A stretch of 6,068 bases of DNA from Escherichia phage ID21: the sequence record NC_007818.1, one strand, 5' to 3'. The notes under the pieces were generated by a model, which saw nothing but the letters and a program-made list of their open reading frames with translations, ran no database searches and was not told the origin of the DNA. The position numbers were made by a program, and so were the translations under genes. Below, piece by piece: positions 1 through 6,068 of this stretch (the first letter of the stretch is position 1; every line of letters begins with the position of its first letter).

Positions 1-66
1 TTGTTGACATTCCCTAAATCCTTATGAGACTCTTGCTTCAGCGAAATGACGCAGGAGTCTTTGCTT

Positions 67-435
67 ATGAAACCCGCACATCGCTTAACCCATCCGGTTC
101 TCGGTTCTTGGTTGTTTAAGTGTCCTGTTTATATCCGTTACGAACACCTTCATCATGGTCGTCTTATTAAGGTTCGTGCTGTTCGCGATTTATCCCCTCG
201 CCAACAGCTTATTGCTAACCCTAAAAATTGCTTTGACGTTGTTATTGCTGAGATTGATGTTACTTATGGCTCCCTCACTTGGTTTGATTATGAGCATGAG
301 GAATATGACGAGTTTGAGCCTGATGTTATAAAAGGCCTCGTTAACTATATTGAAATCCCTCATGTTATCCGTTCTGAGGAAGATCCTTCTGTTGATATTG
401 ATGATATGGATTGGCTTTATGAAATTGCGGAGTAA
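67..435 (+). CDS. Hypothetical protein (122 aa; 129 aa if started at in-frame ATG 46) with basic N-terminal half and strongly acidic C-terminal half, encoded in the expanded H-A intergenic region
   Basis: ORF track 46..435. AGGAG at 53-57 lies 9 nt upstream of ATG 67. Third codon positions are predominantly T (CGT, GTT, GAT, CCT, ATT), as in the capsid and scaffold genes. No similarity to any phiX174 protein I can recall. Confidence 0.45.
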   Translation: MKPAHRLTHPVLGSWLFKCPVYIRYEHLHHGRLIKVRAVRDLSPRQQLIANPKNCFDVVIAEIDVTYGSLTWFDYEHEEYDEFEPDVIKGLVNYIEIPHVIRSEEDPSVDIDDMDWLYEIAE

Positions 436-438
436 ATT

Positions 439-528
439 ATGGAAACTGTTATCGGAAAACTTATTGCTCTGGCTGTTGTTGCTCTTATGCTGTATGGAAT
501 TGCCCGTTTGATTCGGAGGTTTCCGTGA
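439..528 (+). CDS. Hypothetical 29-aa hydrophobic peptide (METVIGKLIALAVVALMLYGIARLIRRFP), likely single-pass membrane peptide
   Basis: ATG 439 lies 3 nt after the stop of the upstream ORF (TAA 433-435), with GGAG at 429-432 six nt upstream. A 17-residue hydrophobic core is followed by RLIRR. Below the size cut-off of the supplied ORF track; translated manually. Confidence 0.3.
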   Translation: METVIGKLIALAVVALMLYGIARLIRRFP

Positions 529-701
529 AATATTTTAGTTTGGTAGATGAACATTATGCTTACTGCCCTGATACAAGGATTTTGCACATCACTCGTAGTC
601 GTGTTTCTGACCCTCGTTATGAGCGTCGCTTTCTTACTGATGAGGAGCATTTTGCACTTTTGGATTGGTTAAAAAATCGCCCAACTTATATTAATTCTTG
701 A
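525..701 (+). CDS. Hypothetical 58-aa protein, GTG start overlapping upstream stop (GTGA)
   Basis: GGAGG at 515-519 lies 5 nt upstream of GTG 525, whose last two bases overlap the TGA stop (526-528) of the preceding peptide. T-rich third codon positions and four CGT Arg codons match the phage coding style. No in-frame ATG, so it depends on the GTG start. Stop TGA 699-701 sits inside the -35 of the gene A promoter. Confidence 0.3.
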   Translation: MKYFSLVDEHYAYCPDTRILHITRSRVSDPRYERRFLTDEEHFALLDWLKNRPTYINS

Positions 702-727
702 CAGGCCTTTAAAATACCCTCTATATT
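698..727 (+). promoter_or_regulatory. Sigma70-type promoter upstream of gene A (P_A candidate): TTGACA(698-703)-18 nt-TATATT(722-727)
   Basis: Perfect -35 hexamer and 5/6 match to TATAAT with an 18-nt spacer, about 35 nt upstream of the A start codon. phiX174 also has a promoter immediately upstream of A. Confidence 0.5.
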
Positions 728-757
728 GCCCTCATAGTTTCACTACGAGGGCTTTTT
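728..757 (+). terminator. Intrinsic-terminator-like hairpin (10-bp stem with one A.C mismatch, 5-nt loop) followed by TTTTT, between the P_A -10 and the A start codon
   Basis: GCCCTCATAG (728-737), loop TTTCA (738-742), CTACGAGGGC (743-752), then T5 (753-757). Position is analogous to a terminator after gene H (T_H) that I recall for phiX174. Confidence 0.4.
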
Positions 758-760
758 CGC

Positions 761-2245
761 ATGGCTACTGAAATCTTCTCTGATGTTGTTAAGTCTGTTT
801 GGTCGCACGCTACGGCTAAGCATTCTCATCTTCGTATGGCTGTGCAGGTTGATAACCGTAGTCGTCTTCTTTCTGATTTGGTTTACCAGCTGGAAAAGCG
901 CCTCTCTGAAGAGACTCATCTGGATGATGAGACTTATGCTCTTTATGAATCTCAAACTGGTCTCTTGGAGGACCATATGGCGCTGGTTCGGAAGTGTGCT
1001 GCCCAACTTGATAATAGTAACACTATAGACCACCGTACTCCTTTGGACTCCGAATGTGTTTTCCTCTTTGAGATGATTTGCCCCGGTGTTCGCTACGGTA
1101 AAACATTGAATTCTCTTTGGACCAAGTATGTTGCCCAGTGGCCTGAGAAGTTGATTCGTCAGGAGCTTGATATGGTTAAGCCTTTATCCTTTAAGGATGA
1201 GGTTGCCAAGTACATGGAGAAAATGCAGGAAAAGACACGCAAAAATCGCATGACTCAGAAAGTAATTAATGAGATGCGTATTGCTCACCAGAAAGGCTGG
1301 TTCTTCGTATTTGATACGTTGACCCTTGCCGATGACCGTTTGCAGGCTTTTAATGAAAACCCAAATGCTCTTCGTGATTATTTCAGGACTGTTGGTCGAG
1401 CTGTTCTGCGCGCTGAAGGCCGCTCGGTTAAGGATTCCTACAACGACTGCTATCGCTATCTTTGTGTGCCGGAGTTTGGAGGTCAGCATGGCCGTCTTCA
1501 TTGGCACGTTGTGCATATGGTGCGGACTCTTCCTTTGGGAAGTCACGACCCTAATTTCGGTCGCAAGGTACGTAATTATCGCCAGATTAACTCGTTCCGT
1601 GGCATGTGGCCTTATGGCTTCACGCAACCGATAGCTGTACGCTATCAACATGATGCTTATTCTCGCAAAGGTTGGCTGTGGCATGTTGACAAATCAGGAA
1701 AAGCAATGCAGAGTAAGCCTTATCAGGCGGTCGCATGGTATGTGACCAAGTATGTGGCTAAGCAGTCTGACCAGCGTCAGAAAGCTATTACCGAGAGACA
1801 AAAGAAATGCAAGAATCCACTTATGGCAATATGTCTGAAAAAGGAATTCAGAGTTCGCAGCAGCCGGAAGCTCGGAATGGAGTTGCCGTCGATGGCGCAT
1901 CTCAGCAACAAGGTACTTCTGGAACTGAGTCGAATCAGCTTCGATTCCAGCCCTCTGTATCAGATAGTGAAAGAGAACGCCAAAAAGCAATTGACCTTGA
2001 ACATCGGCGCGCTGCCTTTACACGTCATTTTGGATGTGCGCCCGGAAGTGAGAAGTATGTTGAAAAATATCCGTCGTTTGATGAAAAAGACACCCGAGTT
2101 CAATTGGCAGAGTTCTATCGCTTCAATGACGGTCACCTTAAAAAATGGGGATATTTCTAATGAAGCACGTCAATACATTATTGATGCAGGAATTACGCCT
2201 TCTGATTTGCGAGCTAAAGCGACTCAAACTTTCGGCGGTAAGTGA
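761..2245 (+). CDS. A: Replication initiation protein A (rolling-circle HUH endonuclease), 494 aa
   Basis: ORF track 761..2245. Contains AWYVTKYVAK with two tyrosines (Y327, Y331) matching the phiX174 gpA active-site YVAKYVNK motif as I recall it, plus an HUH-like LHWHVVH. Central and C-terminal regions align with recalled phiX174 gpA (GWFFVFDTLTLADDRL, NPNALRDYFR, DPNFGRKVRN). Contains the origin at 1004-1033. Confidence 0.95.
   Translation: MATEIFSDVVKSVWSHATAKHSHLRMAVQVDNRSRLLSDLVYQLEKRLSEETHLDDETYALYESQTGLLEDHMALVRKCAAQLDNSNTIDHRTPLDSECVFLFEMICPGVRYGKTLNSLWTKYVAQWPEKLIRQELDMVKPLSFKDEVAKYMEKMQEKTRKNRMTQKVINEMRIAHQKGWFFVFDTLTLADDRLQAFNENPNALRDYFRTVGRAVLRAEGRSVKDSYNDCYRYLCVPEFGGQHGRLHWHVVHMVRTLPLGSHDPNFGRKVRNYRQINSFRGMWPYGFTQPIAVRYQHDAYSRKGWLWHVDKSGKAMQSKPYQAVAWYVTKYVAKQSDQRQKAITERQKKCKNPLMAICLKKEFRVRSSRKLGMELPSMAHLSNKVLLELSRISFDSSPLYQIVKENAKKQLTLNIGALPLHVILDVRPEVRSMLKNIRRLMKKTPEFNWQSSIASMTVTLKNGDISNEARQYIIDAGITPSDLRAKATQTFGGK
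1004..1033 (+). other. Viral (+) strand origin of rolling-circle replication; predicted gpA nick between G1010 and A1011
   Basis: CAACTTGATAATAGTAACACTATAGACCAC matches the phiX174 30-nt origin CAACTTG/ATATTAATAACACTATAGACCAC (recalled) at 27 of 30 positions; the three differences are in the AT-rich middle. Confidence 0.85.
1214..2245 (+). CDS. A*: A* protein: in-frame internal restart of gene A (start uncertain: ATG 1214, 1223 or 1250)
   Basis: phiX174 makes A* from an internal in-frame ATG about 25 residues before the conserved GWF motif. Here in-frame ATGs lie at 1214, 1223 and 1250 before GWFFVF, and AAGGATGAGG (1193-1202) is an SD-like element upstream of 1214. Confidence 0.45.
   Translation: MEKMQEKTRKNRMTQKVINEMRIAHQKGWFFVFDTLTLADDRLQAFNENPNALRDYFRTVGRAVLRAEGRSVKDSYNDCYRYLCVPEFGGQHGRLHWHVVHMVRTLPLGSHDPNFGRKVRNYRQINSFRGMWPYGFTQPIAVRYQHDAYSRKGWLWHVDKSGKAMQSKPYQAVAWYVTKYVAKQSDQRQKAITERQKKCKNPLMAICLKKEFRVRSSRKLGMELPSMAHLSNKVLLELSRISFDSSPLYQIVKENAKKQLTLNIGALPLHVILDVRPEVRSMLKNIRRLMKKTPEFNWQSSIASMTVTLKNGDISNEARQYIIDAGITPSDLRAKATQTFGGK
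1807..2160 (+). CDS. B: Internal scaffolding protein B (117 aa), nested in gene A in another frame
   Basis: ORF track 1807..2160. C-terminus ...RVQLAEFYRFNDGHLKKWGYF parallels recalled phiX174 gpB ...RIQPAEFYRFHDAEVNTFGYF. Stop TAA 2158-2160 overlaps the K start as TAATG. Confidence 0.85.
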   Translation: MQESTYGNMSEKGIQSSQQPEARNGVAVDGASQQQGTSGTESNQLRFQPSVSDSERERQKAIDLEHRRAAFTRHFGCAPGSEKYVEKYPSFDEKDTRVQLAEFYRFNDGHLKKWGYF

Positions 2246-3089: not shown

Positions 3090-4373
3090 ATGTCAAACGT
3101 GCAAACTTCCGCTGAACGTATTCCTCACGACCTCTCTCATCTGGTTTTTGATGCAGGCAAAATTGGTCGTTTAAAGGTTGTTTCTTGGACTCCTGTTGTT
3201 GCAGGTGATTCTTTTGAGCTTGATATGATTGGCGCTATTCGCCTTTCTCCGCTTCGTCGTGGCCTTGCTGTTGACTCTCGCGTTGACCTGTTCACGTTTT
3301 ATGTTCCTCATCGTCATGTATATGGTGAGCAGTGGATTGAGTTTATGAAGCAAGGTGTTGATGCTGCTCCTTTGGCCCCTGTTCAGTGCTCTCGCGGTTG
3401 GGATAGTGCTCAGTATCTTGCTACCATTCCGTCTAGTAACCTGAAGGTTCCTAAGTTTCTTCATCAAGGTTACCTGAATATTTATAACAACTATTTTAAA
3501 GCTCCGTGGATGGATGATTTGACTTATGCCAATCCGTCCAATATGGAAGGTGAAGATGTTCGTTTTGGTGTTCGCGCATGTAACCTGAAGACTATCTGGA
3601 CTGCCCCTCTGCCGCCGGATACCGAGACCTCTCATTCTATGGAGACCGAGACTAACTCCATTGATATTATGGGTTTACAGGCTGCTTATGCTCAATTGCA
3701 TACTGAGCAGGAGCGTGATTACTTTATGACTCGTTATCGTGATATCGTTAACGAATTTGGAGGTAGCACGTCTTATGACGCGGATAATCGTCCTCTTCTG
3801 GTTATGCACTCTGAGTTTTGGGCTTCAGGCTATGACGTCGACGGCACCGACCAAAGCTCTCTCGGTCAGTTCTCCGGTCGTGTCCAGCAGACGTTTAAGC
3901 ATTCAGTACCGCGATTCTTCTGTCCTGAGCATGGCACTATGTTTACACTCGCATTGGTCCGCTTCCCGCCGACCCATGAGATGGAGATGCATTACTTAGT
4001 TGGTAAGGAAGATTTGACTTATACTGATTTGGCTTGTGACCCAGCTCTGATGGCTAACTTGCCTCCGCGTGAGGTTAATATGTCTCAGTTCTTCCATTCT
4101 GGAAGTACTAGTGCTAAGTTTAAGATCGCTGAAGGTCAGTGGTATCGTATGCAGCCTGACCGTGTTGCTCTGCCTTATAACTATCTTGATGGTTTCCCGT
4201 TCTATAGCGCGATTCCGTCTGATGATATTAAGCAGCGTGTTCTGGTTAATACTGATAACTACGATGAGGTTTTCCAGTCTATGCAACTTGCTCACTGGAA
4301 TATGCAGACTAAGTTTAACTGCACCATTTATCGTAATATGCCGACTACTCGTGATTCTATTATGACTTCTTGA
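3090..4373 (+). CDS. F: Major capsid protein F (427 aa)
   Basis: ORF track 3090..4373. Long near-identical stretches to recalled phiX174 gpF (LSPLRRGLA, YVPHRHVYGEQWI, YLNIYNNYFKAPWM, SYDADNRPLLVM, GYDVDGTDQ, PRFF.PEHGTMFTLALVRFPP, KFKIAEGQWYR, TTRDSIMTS). Confidence 0.97.
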   Translation: MSNVQTSAERIPHDLSHLVFDAGKIGRLKVVSWTPVVAGDSFELDMIGAIRLSPLRRGLAVDSRVDLFTFYVPHRHVYGEQWIEFMKQGVDAAPLAPVQCSRGWDSAQYLATIPSSNLKVPKFLHQGYLNIYNNYFKAPWMDDLTYANPSNMEGEDVRFGVRACNLKTIWTAPLPPDTETSHSMETETNSIDIMGLQAAYAQLHTEQERDYFMTRYRDIVNEFGGSTSYDADNRPLLVMHSEFWASGYDVDGTDQSSLGQFSGRVQQTFKHSVPRFFCPEHGTMFTLALVRFPPTHEMEMHYLVGKEDLTYTDLACDPALMANLPPREVNMSQFFHSGSTSAKFKIAEGQWYRMQPDRVALPYNYLDGFPFYSAIPSDDIKQRVLVNTDNYDEVFQSMQLAHWNMQTKFNCTIYRNMPTTRDSIMTS

Positions 4374-4955: not shown

Positions 4956-5090
4956 AAGGCCGCCGCACTCCCGGTTATATGCCTGCCCAGTGTAGGGCGG
5001 ACCGAGCCGTACGGAGATACCCGATAAACTAGGAACGTGGAAGGCGTTAGCCGCCTTCCCTCCTGCTAAGCCCAAAGGAGACTTTCAGCT
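4956..5090 (+). other. 135-nt GC-rich structured G-H intergenic region; candidate complementary (-) strand origin of the DnaG-primase-dependent type
   Basis: No credible ORF. Several stem-loops are visible (6-bp stem 4983-5000; CCGTACGG palindrome 5007-5014; perfect 8-bp stem 5039-5059). A CTG at 5063-5065 sits just 3' of the strongest hairpin. GC-rich unlike the T-rich coding regions. Confidence 0.4.
5039..5059 (+). other. Perfect hairpin GGAAGGCG-TTAGC-CGCCTTCC (8-bp stem, 5-nt loop)
   Basis: Inverted repeat read directly from the sequence. Not followed by a T-run, so not a canonical intrinsic terminator. Confidence 0.5.
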
Positions 5091-6068
5091 ATGTTAGGTG
5101 CCGTTGTAGGTGGTATTGCTTCAGCCTTAGCCGGTGGAGCCGCCTCTAAGTTATTTGGTGGCAAGTCTGCCCCTCAAGCCGCTACAGAGTCCGCTGGTCT
5201 ATCTAACGGTCAAGGTGTTATTGGTATGGACCAAGATGCCGGTATTCAGTCTGCTATTCAGGGTTCAAATGTCCCAAATGGTCAGATTCCTGCTCCTACT
5301 ACTACAGGTGGCGTTATGTCTGATGCTGGCAATATGATTAAGAATGCTGGTAAAGATTTGCTTGATGGTGTTATGACTGCTGGTAGTGACCGCGTTAAGC
5401 AGGCTTTGATTGATAAGTTAGGTGGCAATAATGCGAAGAAACAAGGACAAGCAACCCGTGATTACTTGGCTGCGGCCTTCCCTGAGCTCAACGCATGGGA
5501 GCGTGCTGGAGCTGGTGCTTCCGGCGCCGGCTTGGAATCTTCCAGTCAGGACCAACAGAAAGAATTGATGCGGATGCAGTTGGACAACCAGAAAGATATT
5601 GCGAAGATGCAGATGCAGAATAATTTGCAGATTGCAGGTATTCAGTCCGCTACTTCTCGTCAAAATACGAAGGATTCTGTTTATGCTCAGAATGAGATGC
5701 TTCAGTACAATCAGCGTGAGTCGCAAGCGCGTGTTGAGTCCATCCTTGCCAACACTGACCTTACGGCTAAACAGGCCACCCATGAAATTATGAGAATGGC
5801 CCTTACTCGTGCTCAGGAGACTGGTCAACACTTAACTAACTCCCAGGTTATGGCATTGGAGAAAAAGGTTTATGCAGAAATCGGAAAAATTCATCAGGAT
5901 ACTCAAAATGCTCGTTATGGTAGCTCTCAAGTTACTGCTGCGGCGAAAGATGTTACAAATATGATTTCTGATGCTGCTGGCGGTGTTGCCGATTGGGCTT
6001 CTCAGCAGTGGAATTCTTTCTTTAAAGATGGCAAGTCTAATGGTATTCCTCTCAATACCAGAAAATAA
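5091..6068 (+). CDS. H: Minor spike / DNA pilot protein H (325 aa)
   Basis: ORF track 5091..6068. Gly/Ala-rich N-terminus MLGAVVGGIASALAGGAASKLFGG, TRDYLAAAFPELNAWERAGA, IAGIQSATSRQNTKD.VYAQNEML and RYGSS match recalled phiX174 gpH. SD AAAGGAG 5074-5080. The stop codon is the last triplet of the window. Confidence 0.93.
   Translation: MLGAVVGGIASALAGGAASKLFGGKSAPQAATESAGLSNGQGVIGMDQDAGIQSAIQGSNVPNGQIPAPTTTGGVMSDAGNMIKNAGKDLLDGVMTAGSDRVKQALIDKLGGNNAKKQGQATRDYLAAAFPELNAWERAGAGASGAGLESSSQDQQKELMRMQLDNQKDIAKMQMQNNLQIAGIQSATSRQNTKDSVYAQNEMLQYNQRESQARVESILANTDLTAKQATHEIMRMALTRAQETGQHLTNSQVMALEKKVYAEIGKIHQDTQNARYGSSQVTAAAKDVTNMISDAAGGVADWASQQWNSFFKDGKSNGIPLNTRK

What the first reader, a model, noticed from the sequence alone, without database searches (positions are those of the whole stretch)
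1..760. Expanded 760-nt region upstream of gene A carries a compact three-ORF + strand cassette absent from the phiX174 core
In phiX174 (and G4, as I recall) the spacer between H and A is only tens of nucleotides. Here it holds three consecutive same-strand ORFs (67-435, 439-528, 525-701) separated by 3 nt or overlapping by 4 nt (GTGA), each with its own SD (AGGAG, GGAG, GGAGG), and all with the T-rich third-codon-position bias of the bona fide phage genes. That packing and codon periodicity are hard to get by chance. None resembles a canonical microvirus protein, so this looks like an undescribed accessory module. No canonical promoter precedes it (TTGACA at 4-9 has no usable -10), so expression would be by read-through from H transcripts.
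Basis: partly seen in the sequence, partly recalled or inferred. Interest (0 to 1): 0.85.

Follow-up and report, generated by a model that had tools for sequence, protein, structure and literature searches.

The report
Three small accessory genes between H and A
The 760 bases between genes H and A of this alpha3-type microvirus carry three real, conserved small protein genes found in every member of that genus and nowhere else; their existence was noted in 2006, but nobody knows what they do.

Summary
The window is a complete 6068-nt Alphatrevirus genome (alpha3/St-1/phiK/WA13 group) and 1-760 is its H-A spacer, against 63 nt in phiX174 and 58 nt in G4. It holds ORF1 (67-435, 122 aa), ORF2 (439-528, 29 aa, one membrane-spanning segment) and ORF3 (525-701, 58 aa, GTG start). 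Each has its own Shine-Dalgarno site.

In 27 distinct relatives ORF2 and ORF3 are always intact, and ORF1 is intact in 26. Substitutions are mostly synonymous: dN/dS is 0.18 for ORF1 and 0.08 for ORF3, and about 1 or more in the off-frames. ORF1 folds confidently (pLDDT 90.6) into a shape with no known match. ORF3 resembles only the first half of an OmpR/ToxR DNA-binding domain.

No relative of any of the three was found outside about 6-kb alphatrevirus genomes.

The cassette lies between a relic copy of the gene-A promoter's -35 box and the working promoter and terminator. It is probably transcribed as the tail of the H transcript, behind a conserved hairpin that buries ORF1's ribosome-binding site.

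It is not undescribed. A 2010 review cites Rokyta et al. [quoted passage not shown] Function remains unknown; my best guess is a non-structural, host-directed accessory operon.

The parts
1..9 (+). TTGTTGACA directly after the H stop codon. It is an orphan -35-like hexamer (4-9) and copy 1 of a direct repeat that flanks the cassette; copy 2 is TTCTTGACA at 695-703.
   Evidence: Sequence. It is conserved in 26 of 27 relatives. In phiX174 and G4 the pA -35 lies 9 and 3 nt after the H stop. Identity in register between 1-69 and 695-763 is 30 of 69, reached by 9 of 5000 shuffles. Reading it as an insertion scar is inference.
27..60 (+). Leader hairpin with arms 27-40 and 47-60. Its 3' arm contains ORF1's Shine-Dalgarno site, and a T-rich run (60-66) and ATG 67 follow. 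It looks like a terminator and would sequester the ribosome-binding site.
   Evidence: the repeat finder I1. The fold is -19.8 kcal/mol with z -4.7. All 26 leaders extracted correctly from the 27 relatives fold it, at -13 to -21 kcal/mol; the ID62 leader was cut at the wrong ATG. 94% of cells pair against about 50% in slid controls, but covariation is weak, with one double change.
53..57 (+). Shine-Dalgarno site AGGAG for ORF1
   Evidence: The alpha3 record M25640 annotates a ribosome-binding site at the matching position.
67..435 (+). ORF1, 122 aa. It is soluble. Its conserved basic N-terminal half has pI 9.8 and its acidic C-terminal half has net charge -16. Residues 83-103 (a surface helix and the loop after it) are hypervariable.
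429..432 (+). Shine-Dalgarno site GGAG for ORF2, lying in the last codons of ORF1
   Evidence: M25640 annotates a ribosome-binding site here.
439..528 (+). ORF2, 29 aa, METVIGKLIALAVVALMLYGIARLIRRFP. It has one hydrophobic membrane-spanning segment and a basic C-terminal tail.
   Evidence: ATG and ORF are intact in 27 of 27 relatives. Variable sites by codon position are 8:0:7. GRAVY is 1.31 and pI 10.9. Gene callers call it independently on several metagenome contigs.
515..519 (+). Shine-Dalgarno site GGAGG for ORF3, inside the ORF2 tail
   Evidence: M25640 annotates a ribosome-binding site here.
525..701 (+). ORF3, 58 aa. Its GTG start overlaps the ORF2 stop (GTGA) and its own stop TGA lies inside the pA -35 hexamer.
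698..727 (+). Gene-A promoter pA: -35 TTGACA at 698-703, an 18-nt spacer, and -10 TATATT at 722-727
   Evidence: It is the only 11-of-12 promoter match in the genome. The phiX174 and G4 H-A spacers have the same architecture.
728..757 (+). GC hairpin (GCCCTC 728-733 and GAGGGC 747-752) followed by TTTTT 753-757. It corresponds to the hairpin of the phiX174 and G4 H-A spacers, and I read it as the terminator that closes the H-cassette transcript. The pA start site is predicted to fall in its loop.
   Evidence: the repeat finder I7. The fold is -14.2 kcal/mol with z -5.2. The phiX174 start site 3962 annotated in NC_001422 falls in the loop of the matching hairpin. The terminator function and the start-site position in this window are inferred.
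5091..6068 (+). Gene H (context), the upstream gene whose transcripts must carry the cassette
   Evidence: Pfam Microvir_H is recorded on the neighbours in related contigs.
761..2245 (+). Gene A (context), the downstream gene

Best explanation
Region 1-760 is a three-gene accessory operon specific to the genus Alphatrevirus. It sits in the H-A spacer between a relic copy of the pA -35 box (4-9) and the working pA promoter with its hairpin and T run (698-757).

Shown: all three ORFs are protein-coding and under purifying selection, and they are present in every known alphatrevirus and absent everywhere else searched.

Inferred, expression: the cassette has no promoter of its own. It is therefore transcribed as the distal end of the transcripts that cover H, and these end at the hairpin and T run at 728-757. 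A conserved leader hairpin (27-60) followed by a T-rich run probably stops part of these transcripts, and it buries ORF1's Shine-Dalgarno site. That would keep ORF1 output low. ORF2 starts 3 nt after the ORF1 stop, and ORF3 starts inside the ORF2 stop, so ORF2 and ORF3 are made by coupled translation in fixed proportion.

Inferred, products: ORF1 is a soluble 122-aa protein of a new fold. It has a conserved basic half and a very acidic half that carries a fast-evolving surface helix. ORF2 is a 29-aa inner-membrane peptide with its basic tail in the cytoplasm. ORF3 is a small sheet-plus-helix protein that probably works with ORF2.

Least certain, function: the products are non-structural and not needed for the core replication and assembly cycle, which phiX174 and G4 run without them. 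They most likely act on the infected cell, for example by evading host defence, excluding competing phage or adjusting the envelope. ORF1's variable acidic surface would be the contact with a variable partner.
For: ORFs and signals.

Conservation: the region is 84-91% identical in 13 other alphatreviruses.

Integrity: ORF2 and ORF3 are intact in 27 of 27 distinct H-A regions and ORF1 in 26 of 27, including metagenome contigs.

Selection: dN/dS is 0.18 for ORF1 and 0.08 for ORF3, against about 1-5 in the off-frames. ORF2 never varies at second codon positions. Pooled pN/pS values are 0.32, 0.49 and 0.20 for ORF1, ORF2 and ORF3. Baselines are H 0.09 and A 0.09.

Divergent allele: P0030 is 40% identical to ORF1 yet keeps the frame and the motifs. 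It sits next to a nearly unchanged ORF2 N-terminus and ORF3.

In-frame change: a 32-aa N-terminal extension variant exists.

Rewritten junction: the ORF2/ORF3 junction exists in two versions and keeps the 4-nt overlap in both.

Independent calls: gene callers find H, then 120-154 aa and 58 aa, then A on every contig, and the 29-30 aa gene on most.

Structure: AF2 models reach pLDDT 90.6 and 76. The BFVD model of the ORF1 ortholog has the same fold.

Distribution: only alphatrevirus records carry the genes. They are the same 24 records that carry gene A. E. coli genomes gave no match to the region and plasmids none to ORF3.

Promoter and hairpin architecture.

Charge split of ORF1. Hypervariable residues 83-103, with pN/pS about 0.9-1.1 while the hydrophobic positions of the helix are kept.
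Against: There is no expression data of any kind here: no transcript ends, ribosome footprints or peptides.

The leader hairpin is supported by conservation and energy, but covariation is weak. It could be a DNA-level element.

ORF2's synonymous sites are about 3-fold less variable than those of its neighbours, and the +1 frame scores an equally low dN/dS. ORF2 alone could therefore be something other than, or more than, a simple gene.

No homology or fold match supports any particular function. The host-directed role rests on exclusion and on analogy.

The St-1 frameshift may be a sequencing error rather than evidence that ORF1 is dispensable.
Confidence: 0.7

Rival explanations
1. The expanded spacer is a non-coding cis element, such as the complementary-strand origin, a packaging signal or a regulatory RNA, and the ORFs are incidental.
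For: These phages do need a primase-type complementary-strand origin somewhere in the genome. Positions 1-66 and the ORF2 stretch are conserved at the nucleotide level.
Against: Variation follows codon positions: 15, 5 and 53 variable sites in the ORF1 N-half and 12, 7 and 30 in ORF3, with off-frame dN/dS at or above 1. Frames are kept through 60% amino-acid divergence and through in-frame indels. The G4-type origin is found elsewhere: the G-H spacer 4956-5090 aligns end to end with the G4 F-G spacer that carries the annotated origin. There is no Rfam match. The 425-535 stretch folds no better than shuffles, z 0.06.
Confidence: 0.03
2. Only ORF1 and ORF3 are genes. The 90-nt ORF2 stretch is a conserved linker or cis element, or it is read in two frames, and the 29-aa peptide is not the functional product or not the only one.
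For: Synonymous diversity is 0.11, against 0.30-0.45 in the neighbours. Third positions vary no more than first positions, 7 against 8 sites. The +1 frame has dN/dS 0.20 and is open up to position 511 in all 14 GenBank genomes. PHROG matches are only marginal, at E 0.02 or weaker.
Against: The ATG with GGAG 6 nt upstream is kept in 27 of 27 relatives. Both versions of the junction keep a stop that overlaps the ORF3 start. Second codon positions never vary (0 of 15 variable sites; (2/3)^15 is about 0.002 on my own calculation). All substitutions inside the membrane-spanning segment are conservative, such as I/V, L/F and A/S/T. The +1 frame has no conserved start. Two overlapping translation-initiation regions in a 90-nt gene could explain the constraint on synonymous sites.
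Confidence: 0.12
3. The products are morphogenetic or virion components specific to alphatreviruses.
For: The cassette lies directly after the structural genes F, G and H on the same transcripts. Alphatrevirus genomes are larger than those of phiX174 and G4.
Against: From my own knowledge, not checked here: published alpha3 virion and procapsid structures are built from F, G, H, J, B and D only. Neither ORF1 nor ORF3 resembles a capsid, spike or scaffold fold. The position behind several leaky terminators and a hairpin that buries the Shine-Dalgarno site predicts low abundance. The laboratory phage St-1 carries a frameshifted ORF1 in its record.
Confidence: 0.05
4. The cassette is a selfish or addiction-type insertion, with ORF2 as a toxic membrane peptide and ORF3 or ORF1 as its antidote. 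It would persist for its own sake and give the phage no benefit.
For: The cassette is flanked by a direct repeat (1-9 and 695-703). ORF2 has the size and layout of small membrane toxins. ORF2 and ORF3 are translationally coupled.
Against: No transposase, integrase or nuclease is present. No copy exists outside alphatreviruses. It is fixed in all 24 complete genomes. A 6-kb phage with a tight packaging limit would be expected to lose a useless 12% of its genome.
Confidence: 0.05

Closest known systems
[quoted passage not shown] 2006, as cited by Wichman & Brown 2010, PMC2935103)
   Same: Same phage group, and almost certainly the same ORFs. In the H-A region exactly five + strand reading frames are open in all 14 GenBank genomes. 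They are ORF1, ORF2 and ORF3, plus two hydrophobic overlapping frames that end at 511 and 672.
   Different: The 2006 paper could not be read here, so which ORFs make up the five is my inference. The two overlapping frames look like composition artefacts, because the T-rich wobble position becomes their second codon position and their dN/dS is at or above 1.
Hypothetical proteins QBZ71502, QBZ71503 and QBZ71504 of Escherichia phage Lilleven (MK629527)
   Same: They are orthologs at the same position with the same lengths (122, 29 and 58 aa), the same 3-nt gap and the same 4-nt overlap. They are 74%, 93% and 88% identical to the window's proteins.
   Different: None in kind. The annotation is automatic and no function is given.
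Morons of tailed phages: extra genes inserted between conserved genes
   Same: This is a lineage-specific insertion between two conserved core genes. It is absent from sister genera, bounded by terminator-like hairpins, and presumably gives a conditional benefit.
   Different: A classical moron brings its own promoter, and none is found here. This is a lytic ssDNA phage, so there is no prophage expression. The insertion appears to have split or duplicated the resident promoter region.
OmpR/PhoB/ToxR-type winged-helix DNA-binding domain (for ORF3)
   Different: ORF3 ends after the first helix. It has no recognition helix and no wing, and there is no Pfam, NCBIfam or PDB sequence match. The resemblance covers a sub-domain and does not show membership.
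Small single-pass membrane peptides of phages and type I toxin systems, such as Hok, Ldr, TisB and Fst (for ORF2)
   Same: About 30 aa, with one hydrophobic helix and a basic C-terminal tail.
   Different: There is no sequence relation. Neither an antisense RNA nor toxicity was tested. The resemblance is recalled from memory and is only a lead.
The gene-A initiation region of phiX174 and G4: a hairpin whose 3' arm holds the Shine-Dalgarno site, then a T run, then ATG
   Same: ORF1's leader has the same layout as the leader of gene A in all three genera. The stretches 1-69 and 695-763 are both exactly 69 nt long and match in register at 30 positions.
   Different: The upstream copy has no usable -10. 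Transcripts through it would therefore contain the whole hairpin, whereas pA transcripts are predicted to start inside theirs.

Membership tests
Alphatrevirus H-A cassette (the conserved ORFs cited from Rokyta 2006; the Lilleven hypothetical proteins) | Lies between the gene H stop and the gene A promoter of an alpha3-like genome | tested here: met
   H ends at 6068 and A starts at 761. The same placement holds in 13 GenBank phages and in the metagenome contigs.
Alphatrevirus H-A cassette (the conserved ORFs cited from Rokyta 2006; the Lilleven hypothetical proteins) | Three co-linear ORFs of about 122, 29 and 58 aa that are orthologous to those of alpha3, St-1, phiK and WA13 | tested here: met
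   Amino-acid identity is 74-97% for ORF1 (62% over 78% of its length in the frameshifted St-1 record), 78-97% for ORF2 and 88-98% for ORF3.
Alphatrevirus H-A cassette (the conserved ORFs cited from Rokyta 2006; the Lilleven hypothetical proteins) | Identity with the specific 'five reading frames' listed in the 2006 paper | not testable with these tools
   The paper is not held. Only the citing sentence could be read.
OmpR/PhoB winged-helix DNA-binding domain (ORF3) | N-terminal four-stranded antiparallel sheet packed on helix 1 | tested here: met
OmpR/PhoB winged-helix DNA-binding domain (ORF3) | Helix-turn-helix with a recognition helix, plus a C-terminal beta-hairpin wing | tested here: not met
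   The protein is 58 aa and ends 9 residues after helix 1.
OmpR/PhoB winged-helix DNA-binding domain (ORF3) | Sequence match to the family profile (Pfam Trans_reg_C) | tested here: not met
   No Pfam or NCBIfam family matches at E up to 1. There is no PDB sequence match to such domains.
Moron (autonomous inserted gene unit) | Inserted between genes that are adjacent in related phages | tested here: met
   The H-A spacers of phiX174 and G4 are 63 and 58 nt, against 760 nt here.
Moron (autonomous inserted gene unit) | Own promoter | tested here: not met
   No sigma-70-like site lies upstream of ORF1. TTGACA at 4-9 lacks a -10. This was a consensus scan only, not a transcript map.
Moron (autonomous inserted gene unit) | Own terminator | tested here: inconclusive
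   Hairpin-plus-T-run structures bracket the cassette at 27-66 and 728-757. The downstream one corresponds to the hairpin already present in the phiX174 and G4 spacers. Termination was not measured.
G4-type complementary-strand origin located in the H-A region | Sequence homology to the G4 origin and primer region | tested here: not met
   The homolog is the G-H spacer 4956-5090, not 1-760.
Acidic DNA-mimic anti-restriction proteins such as Ocr and ArdA (ORF1) | Strongly acidic surface | tested here: inconclusive
   The C-terminal half has 18 Asp/Glu in 56 residues and net charge -16, but the N-terminal half is basic, about +5.
Acidic DNA-mimic anti-restriction proteins such as Ocr and ArdA (ORF1) | Sequence or fold similarity to a known DNA mimic | tested here: not met
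Type I toxin-like small membrane peptide (ORF2) | A peptide of about 30 aa with one hydrophobic helix and a charged tail | tested here: met
   The sequence is METVIGKLIALAVVALMLYGIARLIRRFP, with GRAVY 1.31 and pI 10.9.
Type I toxin-like small membrane peptide (ORF2) | Toxicity on expression, and control by an antisense RNA | not testable with these tools
   This needs an experiment. No promoter-like site was found on the minus strand of 1-760.

The most novel reading that the evidence does not exclude
ORF1 is a fast-evolving inhibitor of a host factor or defence system. Its conserved basic half would be the scaffold. Its acidic half, with the hypervariable surface helix at residues 83-103, would be the contact surface in an arms race. 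ORF2 and ORF3 would form a membrane-anchored partner system, for example for superinfection exclusion. Together they would be the first anti-defence or competition module described in a phiX174-type ssDNA phage. They might explain why alphatreviruses, unlike phiX174 and G4, grow on K-12 and B strains. A further unexcluded oddity is that the ORF2 stretch may be read in two frames.
Probability: 0.2. Interest if true: 0.7.

Novelty: already known. Interest (0 to 1): 0.4.

Why it matters
The phiX174 group is the best-annotated set of genomes in biology, and phiX174 itself has been declared 'annotation complete' (PMC6883844). Yet its sister genus carries about 12% extra genome as three conserved genes. 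Reference records leave them unannotated: alpha3, St-1, WA13, ID32 and the others have no feature there. A 2026 paper on a new alpha3-like phage still lists only the eleven canonical genes.

A T=1 capsid has little spare packaging room, so keeping 700 nt throughout the divergence of the genus implies a real benefit in nature. The system is small and easy to manipulate genetically, so the question of function can be tested directly. ORF1 also appears to have a new protein fold. The practical lesson is that annotations of alphatreviruses should include these three genes.

Tried and rejected
1. Family searches of the three proteins against Pfam, PHROGs, NCBIfam and PADLOC gave nothing usable.

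2. Sequence searches for relatives found only alphatrevirus contigs. I ran two single-sequence searches and one profile search of 5.8 billion proteins. I also ran one exhaustive HMMER profile search of 1.84 billion representatives with ORF1. That last search did turn up a 40%-identical ORF1 allele, P0030.

3. PDB sequence searches with profiles gave nothing.

5. I suspected that ORF1's N-terminal half and ORF3 are paralogs. Both have four strands and a helix, both hit ToxR weakly, and RLIKVRAVRDLSPR resembles RILHITRSRVSDPR. hhalign gave 5% probability, and the motif falls on different secondary-structure elements, so I rejected the idea.

6. The cassette is not derived from the phage's own genes: blastp and tblastn against the rest of the genome found nothing.

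7. It is not derived from E. coli or from plasmids.

8. I considered that H-A is the complementary-strand origin. I rejected this because the origin homolog lies in the G-H spacer.

9. I considered that TTGACA at 4-9 is a working promoter. No spacing gives an acceptable -10, so this is unsupported, though not excluded experimentally.

10. RNA structure could not explain the low synonymous variation of ORF2: z 0.06.

11. Covariation support for the leader hairpin is weak.

12. The primary paper (Rokyta 2006) and a related adaptation paper are not held. Other literature searches found no functional study.

13. An IMG/VR scan with the H C-terminus added few new H-A regions, because most records end at the H stop.
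Full report
WHAT THE WINDOW IS. The 6068 bases are a complete circular microvirus genome written from the base after the gene H stop codon. H is 5091-6068 and A is 761-2245, and D, E, J, F and G are all recognisable. Region 1-760 matches the start of 13 different Alphatrevirus genomes at 84-91% identity. These are alpha3, St-1, phiK, WA13, WA45, ID32, ID62, NC3, NC28, NC29, NC35, Lilleven and a dog-faeces microvirus. The window's H C-terminus is 100% identical to a 6068-nt IMG/VR record. Region 1-760 is therefore the H-A spacer of an alpha3-type phage.

- ORF1 is 67-435. The ORF listing starts it at ATG 46, but only ATG 67 is conserved in relatives.
- ORF2 is 439-528.
- ORF3 is 525-701 with a GTG start.
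- The Shine-Dalgarno sites are AGGAG 53-57, GGAG 429-432 and GGAGG 515-519.
- ORF1 and ORF2 are 3 nt apart. ORF2 and ORF3 overlap by GTGA.

T at third codon positions is 0.56, 0.50 and 0.58, like F (0.51), G (0.59) and H (0.46). The H-A spacers of phiX174 and G4 really are short, at 63 and 58 nt. Within the window alone, an ORF of at least 122 codons occurs in 8 of 2000 dinucleotide shuffles.

THEY ARE GENES. I collected 27 distinct H-A regions. They come from the GenBank records, one IMG/VR contig, and Logan and ENA metagenome contigs found through the proteins. Seven lines of evidence agree.
- Integrity. ORF2 and ORF3 are intact in all 27 and ORF1 in 26. The exception is a single-base deletion in the St-1 record.
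- Selection in the 14 GenBank genomes. dN/dS is 0.18 for ORF1, with 0.06 in the N-half and 0.31 in the C-half. It is 0.08 for ORF3. The two other frames of the same DNA give 1.0-5. Variable sites by codon position are 43, 34 and 96 for ORF1 and 12, 7 and 30 for ORF3.
- Selection in the larger set. Pooled pN/pS is 0.32, 0.49 and 0.20 for ORF1, ORF2 and ORF3. The neighbouring ends of H and A both give 0.09.
- A divergent allele. An exhaustive profile search found an ORF1 allele only 40% identical (P0030). It keeps the length, the frame and motifs such as AHR..HP..G.W.FK.PVY and ANPKNC. It sits on a contig whose ORF3 is almost unchanged and whose ORF2 keeps its first 21 residues.
- An in-frame insertion. 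Two contig families carry an insertion that gives ORF1 a 32-aa N-terminal extension.
- A rewritten junction. The ORF2/ORF3 junction exists in two versions...RRFP-stop with a GTG start and ...RTL[KR]-stop with an ATG start. Both keep the 4-nt overlap.
- Independent gene calls. The callers used for the metagenome assemblies give H, then a gene of 120-154 aa and one of 58 aa, then A on every contig. They also call the 29-30 aa gene on most of them.

THE PRODUCTS.

ORF2 (29-30 aa) is a hydrophobic helix with a basic tail.

Pfam, PHROGs, NCBIfam and PADLOC give no usable hit for any of the three. PDB profile searches with ORF1 and ORF3 give none either.

DISTRIBUTION. Searches of 5.8 billion and 1.84 billion proteins find ORF1 and ORF3 relatives only on contigs of about 6 kb or less, next to Microvir_H and Phage_GPA genes wherever I looked up the neighbours. 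In the phage collection, tblastn finds each of the three in the same 25 records. Twenty-four of these are exactly the records that megablast finds with gene A. The 25th is a partial alpha3 record. E. coli genomes give no match to the region and plasmids none to ORF3. The cassette is not a copy of any other part of the phage genome. It is a trait shared by the whole genus Alphatrevirus and has no detectable source.

HOW IT IS BUILT IN AND PROBABLY EXPRESSED. In phiX174, G4 and this window, the sequence just before gene A has the same design: TTGACA, about 17 nt, a -10, a GC hairpin, a T run, then ATG. Here that unit is 698-757, and it holds the only strong promoter match in the genome. In phiX174 the annotated start site (3962) falls in the hairpin loop. 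Transcripts from pA therefore lack the 5' arm, while transcripts arriving from upstream contain the full hairpin. I infer from this that the hairpin terminates the upstream transcripts but not the pA transcripts.

In phiX174 and G4 the -35 box lies 9 and 3 nt after the H stop. In the window a TTGACA also lies 3 nt after the H stop (4-9), but its -10 is missing. The stretch 1-9 (TTGTTGACA) repeats at 695-703 (TTCTTGACA). The stretches 1-69 and 695-763 are both exactly 69 nt up to an ATG, and they match in register at 30 positions; 9 of 5000 shuffles reach that. In ID32 the two copies are alike for about 21 nt.

My reading, which is inference, is that about 690 nt were inserted into the ancestral pA region with duplication of its 5' part.

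Downstream of it is a 14-bp hairpin (27-40 with 47-60; -19.8 kcal/mol, z -4.7). Its 3' arm contains ORF1's Shine-Dalgarno site, and a T-rich run (TTTTTT in most relatives) and the ATG follow. It is present in every relative and 94% of cells pair. Nearly all its columns are invariant, however, so covariation adds little.

The most economical model is as follows. The cassette is the distal end of the transcripts that cover H. Some of these stop at the leader hairpin. On the rest, ORF1 initiation is throttled by the buried Shine-Dalgarno site. ORF2 re-initiates 3 nt after the ORF1 stop, ORF3 is coupled to ORF2 through the overlap, and the transcript ends at 728-757. None of this was measured.

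WHAT IT DOES. No tool result points to a function, so this step is inference. phiX174 and G4 complete replication, assembly and lysis without these genes, so they are accessory. Three things argue against a structural role: their place at the far end of the transcription unit behind a Shine-Dalgarno-burying hairpin, their small size, and the absence of any capsid-like fold. Retention of 12% extra DNA in all 24 complete genomes argues for a real benefit. A frameshifted ORF1 in the long-passaged laboratory phage St-1, if it is not an error, argues that the benefit is conditional. An orphan, lineage-specific protein with a very acidic, fast-changing surface is the usual profile of proteins that phages aim at host factors or defences. 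So is a coupled pair made of a membrane peptide and a small soluble protein.

I commit to that reading: a host-directed accessory operon, for defence evasion, exclusion of competitors or an envelope effect. I give it roughly 40% for the general class and no more than about 15% for any one mechanism. I put over 90% on the genes being real and about 70% on the expression model.

RIVALS. A purely non-coding element is excluded for practical purposes, and the primase-type complementary-strand origin lies elsewhere (see below). The one rival that stays open concerns ORF2. Its synonymous sites vary about three times less than those of H, ORF1, ORF3 and A. Third positions vary no more than first positions. 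The +1 frame, open up to 511 in all GenBank genomes but without a conserved start, scores an equally low dN/dS. No RNA structure explains this. Two translation-initiation regions packed into 90 nt may be enough to explain it, but dual coding or a cis element cannot be ruled out.

WHAT IS ALREADY KNOWN. The module is not undescribed. [quoted passage not shown] The 2006 paper is not in the library. In the 14 GenBank genomes exactly five + strand frames are open throughout the H-A region. They are the three ORFs plus two hydrophobic overlapping frames ending at 511 and 672. The latter two are what a T-rich wobble position produces when it is read as a second codon position.

The alpha3 record M25640 already marks ribosome-binding sites before the ORFs. 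The original alpha3 genome record splits ORF1 into two pieces while the resequenced one is intact, which may be why it was never annotated. Lilleven annotates all three as hypothetical proteins. RefSeq records of alpha3, St-1, phiK, WA13 and the others have no feature there, and a 2026 description of a new alpha3-like phage lists only the canonical genes. I found no functional study.

VERDICT. The cassette is real, protein-coding and specific to the genus. Its existence is already on record, and its function is unknown. Novelty: already known. New here, at the level of analysis, are:
- the quantitative selection evidence across 27 genomes;
- the confident new-fold model of ORF1 with a hypervariable surface helix;
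- the partial OmpR-like sub-domain of ORF3;
- the duplicated promoter scar flanking the insertion;
- the conserved Shine-Dalgarno-sequestering leader hairpin;
- the unexplained synonymous constraint on ORF2.

Interest is moderate (0.4). A specialist would not be surprised that the ORFs exist, but the question of what they do is open and easy to test.

Noticed in passing
window 4956-5090 (G-H spacer): This 135-nt spacer aligns along its whole length with the G4 F-G spacer (G4 3884-4019), which carries the annotated primer RNA and complementary-strand origin. It folds into comparable GC-rich hairpins at -45 kcal/mol. The primase-type origin therefore sits between G and H in this genus, whereas it lies between F and G in G4.
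   Followed up: partly
window 439-501 (ORF2 codons 1-21): Synonymous diversity is about 3-fold lower than in all neighbouring genes: 0.11 against 0.30-0.45. Third positions vary no more than first positions, and the +1 frame has an equally low dN/dS. No RNA structure is detected. The cause is unexplained.
   Followed up: partly
window 350-511 and 547-672, + strand, overlapping frames: Two hydrophobic, Leu-rich overlapping reading frames are open in all 14 GenBank genomes, as the frames that end at 511 and 672. Their starts vary and their dN/dS is at or above 1 over most of their length. They lie in the frame where the T-rich wobble position of ORF1 or ORF3 becomes the second codon position, so few stop codons are expected. 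They are probably the other two of the literature's 'five' frames.
   Followed up: partly
L010 (St-1, NC_012868) about position 230; X60322/NC_001330 (alpha3): The St-1 record has a 1-nt deletion that frameshifts ORF1 after residue 55. The original alpha3 record also breaks ORF1 into two pieces, while the resequenced alpha3 (DQ085810.2) is intact. These are either sequencing errors or loss during laboratory passage.
   Followed up: partly
L014 (NC35, NC_007820), equivalent to window 708-736: NC35 lacks 29 nt, comprising most of the pA spacer, the pA -10 and the 5' arm of the hairpin. In this phage the cassette would not be insulated from gene A, and A would need another promoter arrangement.
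   Followed up: no
L031/L032 and L033/L034 (ENA and Logan contigs of 6217 and 6193 nt), just after the H stop: An insertion of about 110 nt gives ORF1 an in-frame, acidic 32-aa N-terminal extension (154 aa: MKPLTSSEIEVINSAICDLDDSIEEVESLVASASFKPAHRL...). It is itself under purifying selection. The leader hairpin is rebuilt around a different inner stem.
   Followed up: partly
L015 (Logan SRR20337160 contig, 1962 nt) 820-1475: This is a mosaic locus. ORF1 is only 40% identical to all other alleles (129 aa), while ORF3, the first 21 residues of ORF2 and the flanking H and A ends are close to the window's. Here the ORF1 stop is followed directly by the ORF2 ATG (TAAATG).
   Followed up: partly
L005 (phiK, NC_001730), equivalent to window 698-703: In phiK the pA -35 reads TTGGCA. 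Because the ORF3 stop lies inside that hexamer, ORF3 runs on to 70 aa there.
   Followed up: no
window 417-650, minus strand: A 77-aa minus-strand ORF is open in 12 of 14 GenBank genomes. It is antisense to ORF2 and ORF3, and no promoter-like site was found for it. It is probably incidental.
   Followed up: no
window 761-2245 compared with 1-760: Gene A is 92-95% identical in nucleotides across the genus, while the cassette is 84-91% identical. The most divergent stretch is 331-390 in ORF1, with pairwise diversity 0.34-0.40. The cassette evolves faster than the overlapping-gene region next to it.
   Followed up: partly
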